Below are positions 3,256 through 6,031 of a stretch of DNA of 64,000 nucleotides, piece by piece. Within the stretch, counting starts at the first letter, position 1. Every line of letters starts with the position of its first letter. The notes below the pieces were generated by a model. It searched no databases. It was not told the DNA's origin and saw only the letters and a program-made list of their open reading frames with translations. Source of the DNA: Dehalococcoidia bacterium (GTDB lineage: Bacteria; Chloroflexota; Dehalococcoidia; Plut-88900); NCBI GenBank assembly GCA_965197645.1, contig OZ240219.1, positions 2,880,001 through 2,944,000 on the forward strand. Reading direction: 5' to 3'. A program made the position numbers and the translations under genes.

Positions 3256-3283
3256 TTGCCGTTGGAACGTTTTTGTGTACAAT
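3256..3283 (+). promoter_or_regulatory. Putative sigma70 promoter of the DsrE-like operon
   Basis: TTGCCG-16 nt-TACAAT with TG extension, about 55 nt upstream of 3339. Confidence 0.55.
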
Positions 3284-3338
3284 TGCTCTTCGCTAGGAAG
3301 ACTGTACGACAAGACCGTAGATCCTCACGGAGGTGTAG

Positions 3339-3671
3339 ATGGCGAACTACCTGTTGGTCGAGTCCAGAGATCCCTTCGAGTATGGGGACGTCGGCTACTT
3401 TACCGGAGTAGCCAGCGATCTCGCCGGCGCGGGCAACGACGTCACCCTGTTCTTGATACAAAACGCCGTCCTCATGTCCCGAAAGGGCGTCGCCGGCGAT
3501 CCCCTCGCCTCGTGCCTCTCCTCGAATAAGATCGACGTCAAGGCGGACGAGTTCTCACTCAAGGAACGAGGCATCGGCGCCGCGTCGATGGCAGCGGGAG
3601 TAACAGCCAGCGACGTCGATGAGCTGGTGGACCTTTTGACCCAGGACGGGATTAAGGCCGTCTGGCACTAG
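3339..3671 (+). CDS. DsrE/DsrF/DsrH-superfamily protein (subunit 1)
   Basis: VTLFLIQNAV and ADEFSLKERGI patterns of the DsrEFH fold; GGAGG RBS. Confidence 0.8.
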   Translation: MANYLLVESRDPFEYGDVGYFTGVASDLAGAGNDVTLFLIQNAVLMSRKGVAGDPLASCLSSNKIDVKADEFSLKERGIGAASMAAGVTASDVDELVDLLTQDGIKAVWH

Positions 3672-3687
3672 AGAGGAGCAGCTAATC

Positions 3688-4086
3688 ATGGCCAAGACCC
3701 TTACCGTATCTTTTATGGACTCCCCTTACGAATCGGAGACCACCACTACCGTCCTCCGCATCGTCGATTCCGCACTGAACAAAGGACACAACGTCAACGT
3801 GTTTGCCTATGAAGGCGCTGTGACCCTCACCATGAGCGAGCAGTCCCCTCACCCCAACCCGGTTAAGGGCACCTCAATCGAGGAGCAGGACCACCCTACC
3901 ACGTCCAAGTTCGTCGAGGGGTTGTTCAAGAAGAGCAAAGGCAAGCTCGACTGGATCAACTGAGGCCTCTGCGTGGATGAGCGTGGCTCGTCCAACTGGA
4001 TCGAAGGCCCTCGAAGGGGCGCCCCCAAGGACCTGCTGGACTGGTCTCAGTCCAGCGATAGCACCCTGATCATAGGTTGCCGATAG
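3688..4086 (+). CDS. DsrE/TusD-like protein, 132 aa, predicted selenoprotein (Sec92 at TGA 3961-3963, UxxC)
   Basis: N-terminus DSPYES..ALNKGHNVNVFAYEGAV is DsrE-like. The frame continues past TGA as U-GLCVDERG...DSTLIIGCR-TAG, with a SECIS-like hairpin downstream. The stop abuts the RBS of the next gene. Confidence 0.85.
3974..3994 (+). promoter_or_regulatory. Candidate bacterial SECIS element
   Basis: TGGATGAGC-GTG-GCTCGTCCA: 9-bp stem (one G-U pair) with a G-containing apical loop, starting at +11 after the UGA. Confidence 0.75.
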
Positions 4087-4096
4087 GAGGACTCAA

Positions 4097-4480
4097 GTGG
4101 CCAAGATACTCAGCATCATGGAGCGGGCCTACCACGGCACCCTGGAAGAGCAGGACGATACCAACATGTGGATCACCGCTGCCATGACCGGCGCCGGCGG
4201 CGAATTCTCCGTCCTCCTGCGGGGAAATGCCGTTAACTACGCCGTTAAGGGTCAGGATGCCAGCGGTCTGACCATAGGCGACGTTCCACTCAGCGTCCCG
4301 CCCAAGCTCGATGAAGACCTGGCCGACCTCATCGGCAAAGGAGTCGACGTTTACGCCGTCCTGGACGACATACAGGCACGGGCGATAACGGCGGCCGACC
4401 TGATAGACGGCGTCAAGGTCATCCCTCAGGCCAAGATCGCCGAGCTGTGGGACCAGCACGATTCTATCTGGCACTGGTAA
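4097..4480 (+). CDS. DsrF/TusC-like protein (subunit 3)
   Basis: ERAYHGTLEEQDDT, SVLLRGNAV and VYAVLDDIQARAI; no Cys; AGGAGG RBS at 4085-4090. Confidence 0.8.
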   Translation: MAKILSIMERAYHGTLEEQDDTNMWITAAMTGAGGEFSVLLRGNAVNYAVKGQDASGLTIGDVPLSVPPKLDEDLADLIGKGVDVYAVLDDIQARAITAADLIDGVKVIPQAKIAELWDQHDSIWHW

Positions 4481-4498
4481 CAGACCACTGGAAGCCTC

Positions 4499-4529
4499 AA
4501 GGGGGAGCGGGGTAGCCACTCCCCCTTTT
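4499..4529 (+). terminator. Intrinsic terminator closing the DsrE-like operon
   Basis: AAGGGGGAG...CTCCCCCTT stem followed by T run. Confidence 0.8.
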
Positions 4530-4612
4530 CAATTGCCCGTTTTTCAACCGCTGTGATATACTGCTTGAACTAATTCCCCTACGCTTGGAGGAGGCCCGGT
4601 CCCAGGATTGTT

Positions 4613-5524
4613 ATGGTAGAACTAAAAGAACCTACAACCCAGCAGGCGGAGGCGCCCGAGGCGCCCCCGCCCGTCACGATGAAGCTACTGCTGGAATCAG
4701 GGGTCCACTTCGGGCACCAGACGCGACGATGGCACCCGAAGATGAGATCCTTCATTTTCACGCAGCGCAACGGCATCCACATCATAGACCTCCAGCAGAC
4801 TATGACCAAGCTGGAGGAGGCCTGCGAATACGTCAAAGAGCTGGTGGCCGACGGAGGCGAAATCCTCTTCGTCGGCACCAAGAAGCAGGCCCAAGACGTG
4901 GTGGAAGAGGCCGCCACCCGCTGCGGCATGCACTATGTCAAGACCCGCTGGCTGGGAGGCACCCTGACCAATTTCAACACCATCCAGGGCCGCATCGACT
5001 ATCTGGTCAGGCTGGAGGACCGCAAGGCCAAGGGAGGCCTCGAAGCTCTTCCGAAGAAAGAGGCCCTAGAGCTTGGACGCCAGATGGTCCGCATGAACCG
5101 TCTGATGTCCGGAATCAAGGAGATGACCAGGCTCCCCGACGCTGTGTTCGTCATCGATCCGGGCAAGGAGTCCATCGCCGTCGCAGAGGCCAGACGAATG
5201 GACGTCCCCATCGTCGCCATCGTCGACACCGATTGTGACCCCAACCTCATCGACTACCCCGTCCCGGGCAACGACGACGCCATTCGCTCGGTCAAGCTGA
5301 TGTGTGGCAAACTGGCCGACTCCGTGTTGGAGGGCATCAGCCTCCGGCTCCAGAGGGTGGAGGAGGAGCAAAAGCTGATGGAGGAGTCCATGGAAGACCT
5401 GCCCGCGGATTCCCCCAATGCACCCGCCTCCGAGCTCGAGACCGGCGACCCGGTTCCGGAACCCCCAGTAGTCACCGAGGCCGAGTTCAAACAACCCGAA
5501 GAGTCCCCGAAACCGGCGGATTGA
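4613..5524 (+). CDS. rpsB: 30S ribosomal protein S2
   Basis: [29 protein letters not shown] and PGNDDAIRS motifs. Confidence 0.99.
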
Positions 5525-5527
5525 TCC

Positions 5528-6031
5528 GTGCCAGTATCCACCGAATCGATAAAAGAGTTGAGAGAGCGCTCGGGCGCGGGCATCATGGACTGCAAGCGAG
5601 CGCTGGAGGAGGCCCAGGGCGTCATCGAGGAAGCGGAAAAGCTGCTGGCCGCCAAGGGCCTCGCCGCTGCTACCAAGAAGGCGGAACGAGTCGCCGAGCA
5701 GGGTCTGGTTGAGACCTATATCCACGCCGGCGGTAAGCTGGGCGCCATGGTGGAGGTCAACTGCGAGACCGATTTCGTAGCCCGTACAGACGAGTTCAAG
5801 ACTCTAGCCCACGAAATCGCCATGCAGGTTGCGGCTATGGACCCTCAGTACGTCTCCCAAGACGACATGCCCGAGGATTCCACCGACGTACTGGAAGAGG
5901 TCTGCCTGCTCAATCAGGCCTTCATTCGAGACCCCGAAAGAACCATCCAGGACCTGGTCACGGAGACCATCGCCCGGACCGGTGAGAACATCAAAGTAAG
6001 GCGGTACGCCAGGTTCGAACTGGGCAAGTGA
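5528..6031 (+). CDS. tsf: Elongation factor Ts (short form)
   Basis: LRERSGAGIMDCKRAL and EVNCETDFVA motifs. Confidence 0.98.
   Translation: MPVSTESIKELRERSGAGIMDCKRALEEAQGVIEEAEKLLAAKGLAAATKKAERVAEQGLVETYIHAGGKLGAMVEVNCETDFVARTDEFKTLAHEIAMQVAAMDPQYVSQDDMPEDSTDVLEEVCLLNQAFIRDPERTIQDLVTETIARTGENIKVRRYARFELGK

What the first reader, a model, noticed from the sequence alone, without database searches (positions are those of the whole stretch)
3688..4086. Hidden selenoprotein: DsrE/TusD-like protein with UGA-encoded Sec in a UxxC motif and a SECIS hairpin
Seen: the 91-aa ORF stops at TGA 3961, but the frame stays open for 40 more sense codons (U-GLCVDERGSSNWIEGPRRGAPKDLLDWSQSSDSTLIIGCR*) and ends at a TAG that overlaps the AGGAGG RBS of the next gene. 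A 9-bp hairpin with a GUG loop (3974-3994) starts at +11 from the UGA. Known: the persulfide-carrying Cys78 of DsrE/TusD sits in C-x6-R-G, and here the UGA occupies that exact slot (U-GLCVDE-R-G). Bacterial SECIS elements lie just 3' of the UGA inside the CDS, as in E. coli fdhF. Inference: a 132-aa selenoprotein that standard gene callers would truncate just before its active site. DsrE-like selenoproteins have been reported in selenoproteome surveys, so novelty lies in the lineage and operon context and is unverified.
Basis: partly seen in the sequence, partly recalled or inferred. Interest (0 to 1): 0.88.

Follow-up and report, generated by a model that had tools for sequence, protein, structure and literature searches.

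The report
Selenocysteine DsrE-like protein, truncated by annotators
The apparent stop codon inside this small sulfur-carrier-like gene almost certainly encodes selenocysteine at the active site, a known kind of selenoprotein that databases routinely cut short at that codon.

Summary
TGA 3961-3963 sits in frame in a 132-codon gene (3688-4086). It aligns with an invariant Cys (W-x-N-C-G-L-C-V-D-E-R-G) in 19 of 19 full-length homologues.

The genome has tRNA-Sec, SelA, SelB and SelD and uses TGA as an ordinary stop elsewhere. Four other genomes or contigs carry TGA at the same codon. All five share the same 8-9 bp hairpin with a GUG loop, and three TGC (Cys) relatives lack it. Third-codon positions are 87% identical across the hairpin against 51-57% in the rest of the gene. 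The hairpin meets all four published bacterial SECIS criteria. Nineteen database clusters end exactly at "...WIN".

The protein has the DsrE/TusD/YchN fold and is the middle gene of a three-gene DsrEFH-like cluster conserved in 7 of 7 loci. TusA and DsrC/TusE were not found, so its chemistry is inferred, not shown.

DsrE-like UxxC selenoproteins have been in print since 2005, so this is a new member of a known kind. Interest is moderate to low.

The parts
3256..3283 (+). Promoter-like site (TTGCCG, 16 nt, TACAAT) about 55 nt upstream of the first gene. It may be the start of the three-gene unit.
   Evidence: 3 sites found against a mean of 0.3 in shuffles. This is a consensus match only.
3339..3671 (+). 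ORF1, 110 aa. A DsrF/TusC-like partner subunit with no conserved Cys.
   Evidence: Weak Pfam DsrE hit (19 bits, below the 22.7 cut-off). Orthologue directly upstream of the Sec/Cys gene in 7 of 7 loci. No conserved Cys in 7 aligned sequences.
3673..3678 (+). GAGGAG ribosome-binding site, 9 nt before ATG 3688.
   Evidence: Read directly from the sequence.
3688..4086 (+). Full selenoprotein coding sequence, 132 codons. DsrE/TusD-like subunit with Sec92-x-x-Cys95.
   Evidence: (Pfam DsrE 32.8 bits over residues 5-127).
3961..3963 (+). UGA read as selenocysteine (residue 92).
   Evidence: Aligns with an invariant Cys in 19 of 19 homologues. TGA at the same codon in L024, L025, L026 and L027. Nineteen database clusters end at the preceding Asn.
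3970..3972 (+). Cys95 codon (TGC), the second residue of the UxxC motif.
   Evidence: Invariant in alignment A1. It is TGT in L024 and TGC in the other Sec forms, a synonymous change downstream of the TGA.
3974..3994 (+). SECIS hairpin: 9-bp stem and apical loop G3983-U3984-G3985, with 19 nt between the UGA and the loop.
4084..4086 (+). True stop codon TAG. It overlaps the AGGAGG ribosome-binding site (4085-4090) of the next gene.
4097..4480 (+). ORF3, 127 aa. A DsrH/TusB-like partner subunit with no conserved Cys.
   Evidence: Pfam DsrH 28.4 bits against a 24.4 cut-off. NCBIfam TusB 29.9 bits, below the 49.2 cut-off. Directly downstream of the Sec/Cys gene in the 6 loci that extend that far. 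No conserved Cys.

Best explanation
The gene at 3688-4086 encodes a 132-residue selenoprotein of the DsrE fold.

Decoding. During translation, SelB carrying Sec-tRNA(Sec) binds the hairpin at 3974-3994 (apical GUG loop, 19 nt after the UGA). It inserts selenocysteine at UGA 3961-3963, and the ribosome continues to TAG 4084. The decoding step is well supported by comparative evidence but has not been shown biochemically.

Position in the protein. Sec92 lies at the end of a beta-strand and the start of a helix, in the slot of the persulfide-carrying Cys78 of TusD/DsrE. With Cys95 it forms a UxxC motif.

Complex. The protein is the only Cys/Sec-bearing subunit of a three-gene DsrEFH/TusBCD-like cluster: ORF1, the Sec protein, then ORF3.

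Chemistry (inferred, about 40% confidence). Sec92 accepts a sulfane sulfur, or cycles through a selenenyl-sulfide with Cys95. The partners are not the canonical TusA and DsrC/TusE, which were not found in this genome.
For: 1. The TGA aligns with an invariant Cys, and the 40 residues after it align with full-length homologues of 64-75% identity.

2. The Sec machinery is complete in the same 3.21-Mb genome. tRNA-Sec (tca) scores 66.4 bits and ARAGORN confirms it. SelA scores 449 bits, the SelB wing domain 73 bits in a 621-aa frame, and SelD 380 bits, itself with one in-frame TGA.

3. TGA is an ordinary stop in this genome. It ends 746 of 2252 long frames, including the neighbours rpsB and tsf.

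4. A TGA-specific pattern found the same codon in 3 species genomes (Dehalococcoidia and Chloroflexota MAGs) and 1 metagenome contig. All have an open frame to the same C-terminus. All 3 genomes have tRNA-Sec.

5. All 5 TGA forms carry the hairpin (dG -12.6 to -14.4). All 3 TGC forms have only -2.6 to -3.9 in the same slot.

6. Among the 5 Sec genes, third-codon-position identity is 0.87 over nt 0-42 from the UGA. It is 0.57 upstream and 0.51 downstream. The three Cys genes show 0.55 in the same span.

7. Downstream of the hairpin, overall nucleotide identity (0.70) exceeds third-position identity (0.51). This means the post-UGA codons are under protein-coding selection.

8. The hairpin meets all four bSECIS criteria quoted in PMC13188914: 3-nt loop, 9-bp stem, G then U at the start of the loop, spacing 19 nt, dG -12.6.

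9. It resembles the hairpins after the Sec codons of SelD (8 bp, GUA loop) and a peroxiredoxin (7 bp, GUG loop) in the same genome.

10. Nineteen 90%-identity clusters among the top 120 hits are 91-93 aa and all end in ...WIN. On a tree of 159 rows, the Sec label needs 3 changes against 18.3 in shuffles, and 0 of 500 shuffles were as low.

11. The fold matches YchN, DsrE and TusD at Z 16.6, 15.7 and 15.6. The model puts a strand at 87-92 and a helix at 93-99.

12. Contigs from runs of two other studies, and from two RNA libraries, bridge the TGA. No different letter is listed at 3961-3963.
Against: - There is no biochemical evidence of selenium incorporation or of a full-length product.
- The 66-nt region as a whole folds no better than shuffles, and hairpins after TGA are common in this G+C-rich genome under loose criteria (266 of 474).
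- Stem variation among the 5 Sec forms is one-sided only (C-G to U-G, and U-A to U-G). There are no double compensatory changes.
- DNA was available for only 5 of the 19 truncated clusters, so TGA is inferred, not seen, for the rest.
- Genomes with the Cys form also have tRNA-Sec (3 of 3). The machinery therefore does not predict the Sec form.
- In one search, five difference rows were not shown, so agreement at 3961-3963 in every contig is not proven.
- On function: the NCBIfam TusD and TusB scores are far below their cut-offs. TusA and DsrC/TusE were not found. Flanking genes differ between loci.
Confidence: 0.88

Rival explanations
1. The TGA is a nonsense mutation (pseudogene) or a sequencing or assembly error of TGC/TGT.
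For: A single base separates TGA from the TGC seen in relatives. No relative in the same family has the gene at all (0 of 11), so it could be decaying.
Against: The same TGA occurs in 4 other genomes or contigs with 74-76% protein identity. Nineteen clusters are truncated at exactly this codon. The downstream codons are under coding selection, and a hairpin is conserved at synonymous sites. Contigs from independent studies bridge the site.
Confidence: 0.02
2. Translation really stops at UGA. The 91-aa fragment, perhaps with a C-terminal piece re-initiated at GTG 3973 after the GAGG at 3962-3965, is the working product, so this is a split gene.
For: GAGG lies 7 nt before an in-frame GTG at 3973. 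Gene callers report the 91-aa product.
Against: A split would delete the invariant C92-G-L-C95 from both pieces. Codons 93-95 stay conserved at the protein level with a synonymous TGC/TGT change in L024, so they are translated. The strand ending at residue 92 and the helix at 93-99 form one structural unit in the model.
Confidence: 0.04
3. The UGA is read through, but by a near-cognate or suppressor tRNA inserting Cys or Trp, not by the Sec pathway.
For: Nothing here measures which residue is inserted. A Cys at this site would restore the ancestral protein.
Against: A hairpin with the SelB-type G-U loop is held fixed at synonymous sites only in the TGA forms. The Sec machinery and at least eight other read-through genes at Cys positions exist in the genome. 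TGA serves as a normal stop elsewhere.
Confidence: 0.05

Closest known systems
DsrE-like selenoprotein family (Pfam PF02635, UxxC). Reported from the Sargasso Sea and Desulfovibrio vulgaris (PMC1088965, PMC1794560) and listed in reviews PMC9312934 and PMC13188914.
   Same: Pfam DsrE domain above its cut-off. Sec in a UxxC motif. Cys-containing homologues exist. A SECIS-like hairpin with G in a small apical loop lies just after the UGA.
   Different: This member lies in a Chloroflexota/Dehalococcoidia lineage and is the middle gene of a three-gene DsrEFH-like cluster. Orthology to the published representatives was not tested, because their sequences were not on hand. I saw only passages, tables and figure legends of these papers, not figures or supplements.
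E. coli TusBCD and Allochromatium vinosum DsrEFH sulfur-relay complexes (PDB 2d1p, 2hy5).
   Same: Same fold (Z 15.6 and 15.7). Three adjacent small genes of the DsrE and DsrH families. A reactive residue in the C/U-x6-R-G slot after a beta-strand.
   Different: Gene order is F-like, E-like, H-like. There is a second Cys three residues later (UxxC). A 14-residue surplus before the active-site residue (92 against 78; I place it around HPNPVKGT, not alignment-tested). NCBIfam equivalog scores are far below cut-off (16.9 against 89.25, and 29.9 against 49.2). ORF3 has no conserved Cys. TusA and TusE/DsrC were not found in the genome.
E. coli YchN (PDB 1jx7), a DsrE-fold protein of unknown function.
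   Same: Best structural match: Z 16.6, rmsd 1.7 over 113 residues, 22% identity.
   Different: By recall, not checked here, YchN is encoded alone and forms homo-oligomers. No selenocysteine form of it came up in the papers I read.
SaoD, the DsrE-like CxxC protein of the SAO system (bioRxiv 10.1101/2022.07.06.499078).
   Same: DsrE-related with an invariant CxxC (passage seen).
   Different: That preprint says SaoD is never a selenoprotein and has a third invariant Cys. Here only two Cys/Sec positions are conserved, and no SAO-type NCBIfam model matched at E <= 1.

Membership tests
Bacterial selenoprotein gene (Sec-UGA with bSECIS) | In-frame UGA that aligns with Cys in homologues, with conserved sequence on both sides | tested here: met
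   C92 is invariant in 19 of 19 homologues, and 13 invariant residues follow it.
Bacterial selenoprotein gene (Sec-UGA with bSECIS) | Hairpin meeting the bSECIS consensus: loop of 3-9 nt, stem of 4-16 bp, G in the first two loop positions, 16-37 nt from the UGA, MFE <= -7.5 (criteria quoted from PMC13188914) | tested here: met
   loop GUG, 9 bp, spacing 19 nt, -12.6 kcal/mol. Conserved in 5 of 5 TGA forms and absent in 3 of 3 TGC forms.
Bacterial selenoprotein gene (Sec-UGA with bSECIS) | tRNA-Sec, SelA, SelB and SelD present in the genome | tested here: met
Bacterial selenoprotein gene (Sec-UGA with bSECIS) | Selenium actually incorporated at the UGA | not testable with these tools
   Needs 75Se labelling or mass spectrometry.
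DsrE-like selenoprotein family (PF02635, UxxC) | Pfam DsrE domain | tested here: met
   32.8 bits against a 22.7 cut-off, over residues 5-127.
DsrE-like selenoprotein family (PF02635, UxxC) | Sec in a UxxC motif | tested here: met
   U92-G-L-C95. The motif as listed was seen.
DsrE-like selenoprotein family (PF02635, UxxC) | Orthology to the published representatives (D. vulgaris protein, Sargasso contig) | not tested
TusBCD / DsrEFH sulfur relay | DsrE/TusD fold | tested here: met
   2hy5_A Z 15.7 and 2d1p_A Z 15.6.
TusBCD / DsrEFH sulfur relay | Reactive Cys at the Cys78 position | tested here: inconclusive
   The motif matches (C78-x6-RG in TusD against U92-x6-RG here), and the strand-helix position fits. 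hhalign aligned only the N-terminus at probability 7.5%, and no residue-level structural alignment was available.
TusBCD / DsrEFH sulfur relay | Scores above the NCBIfam equivalog cut-offs for TusD/DsrE, TusC/DsrF and TusB/DsrH | tested here: not met
   TusD 16.9 against 89.25, TusB 29.9 against 49.2, and no hit for ORF1.
TusBCD / DsrEFH sulfur relay | Relay partners TusA and TusE/DsrC encoded in the genome | tested here: not met
   no match to PF04358 or PF01206 in the single-contig genome (estimated 94% complete). This is 'not found with these models', not proof of absence.

The most novel reading that the evidence does not exclude
The Sec-bearing three-subunit DsrEFH-like complex is a relay in its own right, independent of TusA and DsrC. 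It would use a selenol at the Cys78-type site to carry sulfane sulfur, or selenium itself, for example to feed selenide to SelD. The Cys-to-Sec switch would then have occurred only a few times in Chloroflexota linked to marine sponges.
Probability: 0.1. Interest if true: 0.65.

Novelty: new member of a known kind. Interest (0 to 1): 0.35.

Why it matters
The practical value is an annotation correction. At least 19 database clusters of this clade, one of them named by NCBI as a 93-aa "DsrE family protein", are cut off one residue before their active site. They therefore look like inactive fragments.

The locus also gives a clean natural experiment for studying bacterial SECIS elements. Close Sec and Cys forms of one gene differ in a hairpin built from the codons for D-E-R-G-S-S, and the Arg codon is fixed as CGU to supply the loop U.

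For sulfur and selenium biology, it shows a DsrEFH-like trio whose only reactive residue is Sec, in genomes where the usual relay partners were not found. That makes the function of DsrE-like selenoproteins, called uncharacterised in the 2026 review, open to testing with a defined three-gene unit.

Tried and rejected
- Rfam scan of 3300-4600 at E <= 10 gave no SECIS family, only three weak chance-level hits.
- PDB sequence search with the family profile gave only marginal hits: DsrE at E 0.011 over the N-terminus, YchN at 0.081, and spurious ankyrin repeats.
- hhalign of the family against E. coli TusD aligned only residues 5-46 at probability 7.5%. The Sec92 = Cys78 equivalence therefore rests on the motif and the fold.
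- Search of 60 relatives found no close homologue (best E 1.1e-9, 0 of 11 in the same family). In a phylum sample, 4 of 401 genomes matched at E <= 1e-20. The gene is patchy, so lineage-wide counts were not possible.
- My first genome-wide scan for Sec genes was too permissive: 474 candidates, of which 266 had some hairpin. One candidate (C1:3110574) turned out to be two adjacent genes, an M24 peptidase and EF-P, in one frame.
- Flanking genes gave no consistent functional context. They include a CoA-transferase, a LuxR-type regulator, binding proteins, Rieske oxygenases and, in one Cys-form genome, an MBL-rhodanese fusion.
- I considered a global TGA reassignment and rejected it.
- Complex prediction and the search of protein representatives were not used. 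A pass for a DsrEFH-like trio would mostly reflect likeness to solved structures and would not change my odds.
- Literature: searches (DsrE + selenoprotein: 56 papers, 20 listed; selenoprotein + Dehalococcoidia: 9 papers) turned up no description of this three-gene Sec cluster. I read only the matching passages, and supplements are closed. The BSepDB paper (PMC13326102, passage) lists Dehalococcoidia MAGs with 46-49 selenoproteins. Its database or supplements may already hold these genes.

Full report
**Observation**

An ORF starts at ATG 3688 and meets TGA at 3961-3963. The same frame then stays open for 40 sense codons to TAG 4084-4086. That TAG overlaps an AGGAGG (4085-4090) placed before the GTG start of the next gene at 4097.

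RNAfold places a 9-bp stem with a GUG loop at 3974-3994, 10 nt after the UGA, with dG -12.6 kcal/mol for the hairpin alone.

On its own this is not striking:
- The 66-nt region folds no better than shuffles (z = -0.68).
- In this 61% G+C genome, 266 of 474 coding-like in-frame TGAs are followed by some hairpin under loose criteria.
- With the published bSECIS geometry and an uninterrupted stem of 9 bp or more, the rate at random TGA triplets is 59 of 5000.

**What the gene is**

Read through, the 132-residue product matches Pfam DsrE over residues 5-127 at 32.8 bits against a cut-off of 22.7.

A search of the large protein collection gave 5702 hits. The top 120 are 121-140 residues long, 62-75% identical, and cover 93-100% of the query.

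In an alignment of 19 of them with the window's protein, the column under the TGA is an invariant Cys within W-x-N-C-G-L-C-V-D-E-R-G. Thirteen of the 40 post-TGA residues are invariant.

**Sec machinery and code**

The window lies in a single-contig genome of 3.21 Mb. That genome has:
- a tRNA-Sec with anticodon tca (66.4 bits, confirmed by ARAGORN);
- SelA (449 bits);
- a SelB wing domain in a 621-aa frame;
- SelD, itself with one in-frame TGA.

TGA ends 746 of 2252 long frames, including the neighbouring chorismate mutase, DAHP synthase, rpsB and tsf genes. It has therefore not been reassigned genome-wide.

A scan of the genome for read-through frames, followed by Pfam, gave nine further candidates with TGA inside a domain:
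- OsmC-like;
- DsbA-like (UxxC);
- SelD;
- two AhpC/TSA proteins;
- a thioredoxin-NHL protein;
- a UGSC-family protein;
- a DUF1989 protein;
- a zinc-type alcohol dehydrogenase.

One further candidate was a false positive: two adjacent genes in one frame.

**Recurrence of the TGA**

A degenerate DNA pattern that requires TGA at the Cys codon found 3 of the 185,579 species genomes. Two are titled Dehalococcoidia and one Chloroflexota. It also found 1 metagenome contig.

In all four the frame stays open to the same C-terminus, and the proteins are 74-76% identical to the window's. All three genomes have tRNA-Sec.

A search with only the 91-residue N-terminal part showed that 19 of the top 120 clusters are 91-93 residues long. 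All 19 end in ...WIN, one residue before the Cys column. One of them is named by NCBI as a DsrE family protein of a Dehalococcoidia MAG. These are gene-caller truncations.

I saw DNA for five of the 19 (the window and four others). For the rest, TGA is inferred.

I built a tree on the 93 N-terminal columns with 19 truncated rows and 140 Cys rows. I left out TusD, P0001, the fragment P0142, and any row outside 120-145 residues or lacking the W-x-N-C-G motif. On this tree the truncated label needs 3 changes against a shuffled mean of 18.3, and 0 of 500 shuffles were as low. A single origin is not excluded. Few branches are well supported on so few columns.

**The hairpin as a SECIS**

All five TGA genes carry the hairpin at the same distance (dG -12.6 to -14.4). 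The three TGC genes I had DNA for have -2.6 to -3.9 in the same slot.

The stem is built from the codons for D-E-R-G-S-S. All Sec forms encode ERGSS. Of the Cys forms, the three with DNA encode ERGAG, ERGAT and ERGAS, and in alignment A1 Cys forms are mostly ERGAG.

The Arg codon is CGT in all five Sec genes and CGC in the three Cys genes. Its T is the U of the GUG loop.

Third-codon-position identity among the Sec genes:

| Span | Identity |
|---|---|
| 42 nt from the UGA | 0.87 |
| Upstream 273 nt | 0.57 |
| Downstream 75 nt | 0.51 |
| Same 42-nt span in the three Cys genes | 0.55 |

The two stem differences seen (C-G to U-G in the window, U-A to U-G in L024) keep pairing but are one-sided.

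Downstream of the hairpin, overall identity (0.70) exceeds third-position identity (0.51). The Cys95 codon varies synonymously (TGC/TGT). The post-UGA codons are therefore under protein-coding selection.

The element meets the four criteria of the bacterial SECIS model as quoted in the Fig. 2 legend of PMC13188914: a 3-nt loop, a 9-bp stem, G followed by U at the start of the loop, 19 nt between UGA and loop, and MFE below -7.5.

The same genome's SelD, one peroxiredoxin, the thioredoxin-NHL protein and the DsbA-like gene have similar simple hairpins. They have 7-8 bp stems, loops GUA, GUG, AGUU and GAG, and spacings of 21-27 nt. Four other candidates had no uninterrupted stem of 7 bp or more in that simple scan: two (DUF1989, UGSC) had 6-bp stems, and two (OsmC-like, zinc-type ADH) had none of the 5 bp or more that the scan listed; for the second peroxiredoxin (C1:423119) the looser scan did find a long, interrupted hairpin (dG -26.6).

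**Independent data**

Contigs from runs of two other studies (X3, X5), and from two RNA libraries labelled sponge metagenome (X8, X11), bridge the TGA with 4-8 differences over 313-634 nt. Examples are X3 record 10 (3867-4500) and X8 record 28 (3877-4251).

No other letter is listed at 3961-3963, though five difference rows were not shown. RNA libraries can carry DNA, so transcription is suggested, not shown.

**Structure and context**

An AlphaFold2 model (mean pLDDT 85.4) puts residue 92 at the end of strand 87-92, just before helix 93-99. It matches YchN, DsrE and TusD at Z 16.6, 15.7 and 15.6.

E. coli TusD, read from the K-12 record, has ...VALNIC78-VAAALR-RG. The window has ...LDWINU92-GLCVDE-RG. 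I take Sec92 as the Cys78 equivalent on this motif and the fold. A profile alignment did not reach that far.

The gene is flanked by a 110-residue weak DsrE-like ORF (3339-3671) and a 127-residue DsrH-like ORF (4097-4480). The trio is conserved in order in 7 of 7 loci, Sec and Cys forms alike, as far as each locus extends. Neither partner has a conserved Cys.

Several results argue against a canonical Tus or Dsr relay:
- NCBIfam scores for TusD and TusB are far below the equivalog cut-offs.
- Pfam TusA and DsrC/TusE found nothing in the genome.
- Flanking genes differ between loci.

So this is a distinct DsrE-fold subfamily. Its chemistry, either a sulfane-sulfur carrier or a U/C-x-x-C redox couple, is inference.

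The named nearest relatives of RpsB are all Dehalococcoidia or Chloroflexota MAGs. The three Cys-form genomes from the same phylum also have tRNA-Sec.

**Comparison with what is known**

A "DsrE-like protein" selenoprotein family, defined by Pfam PF02635 and a UxxC motif, appears in:
- the Sargasso Sea survey (2 Sec sequences; tables and legends of PMC1088965);
- Desulfovibrio vulgaris (table of PMC1794560);
- the 2022 and 2026 reviews. The 2026 review says the functions of such proteins remain largely uncharacterised.

BSepDB lists Dehalococcoidia MAGs among the most selenoprotein-rich bacteria.

The present gene meets the family's stated definition. Orthology to the published members was not tested. 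I found no description of the three-gene Sec cluster in the passages returned. Supplements, which may list it, are closed.

**Verdict**

This is a genuine selenocysteine codon in a DsrE-like UxxC protein. It is a new member of a known kind and is systematically truncated in databases. Confidence in the decoding claim is 0.88. Confidence in the specific chemistry is about 0.4. Interest is 0.35.

Noticed in passing
L059 (G000:C1:2857715-2858809, minus strand; TGA at C1:2858689), outside the window: A zinc-type alcohol dehydrogenase (ADH_N and ADH_zinc_N) has an in-frame TGA in the G-V-[TGA]-H-S-D motif, where by recall the zinc-ligand Cys sits. My simple scan found no SECIS-like stem. The term 'alcohol dehydrogenase' does not occur in the 2026 review. 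It could be a new Sec position or a broken gene.
   Followed up: partly
L057 (G000:C1:1494195-1494836, minus strand; TGA at C1:1494509): A DUF1989 protein (134.5 bits) has an in-frame TGA (..LLNA[TGA]SPALFE..) followed by a 6-bp hairpin with a CGUGGGC loop. 'DUF1989' is not mentioned in the 2026 review.
   Followed up: partly
G000:C1:806528, 2211941, 742323, 423119, 2802761, 2252959 (L052, L053, L055, L058, L056, L060): Further likely selenoprotein genes in the same genome: OsmC-like (UxxT), DsbA-like (UxxC), two AhpC/TSA proteins, a thioredoxin-NHL protein (CUxxC) and a 599-residue UGSC-family protein.
   Followed up: partly
L046 / L050 (G140:C12:443000-453500): In one Cys-form Chloroflexota genome, the DsrE-like trio is followed directly by a metallo-beta-lactamase-rhodanese fusion. 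A tRNA-Sec gene lies about 1.6 kb from the cluster.
   Followed up: no
window 4613-5524 and L051 4179-5719: The trio sits directly upstream of rpsB-tsf-pyrH. In E. coli, tusDCB sits directly upstream of rpsL-rpsG-fusA. Other loci do not share this neighbourhood, so it may be coincidence.
   Followed up: partly
window 3300-4500: Near-identical contigs occur in RNA libraries labelled sponge metagenome (X8 and X11, 7-8 differences over 356-375 nt). This hints at a sponge-associated organism and at transcription of the cluster.
   Followed up: partly
window 5528-6031: The tsf (EF-Ts) frame is only 167 residues, and Pfam EF_TS matches it in two stretches. I did not check whether this short form is usual for the lineage.
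   Followed up: no
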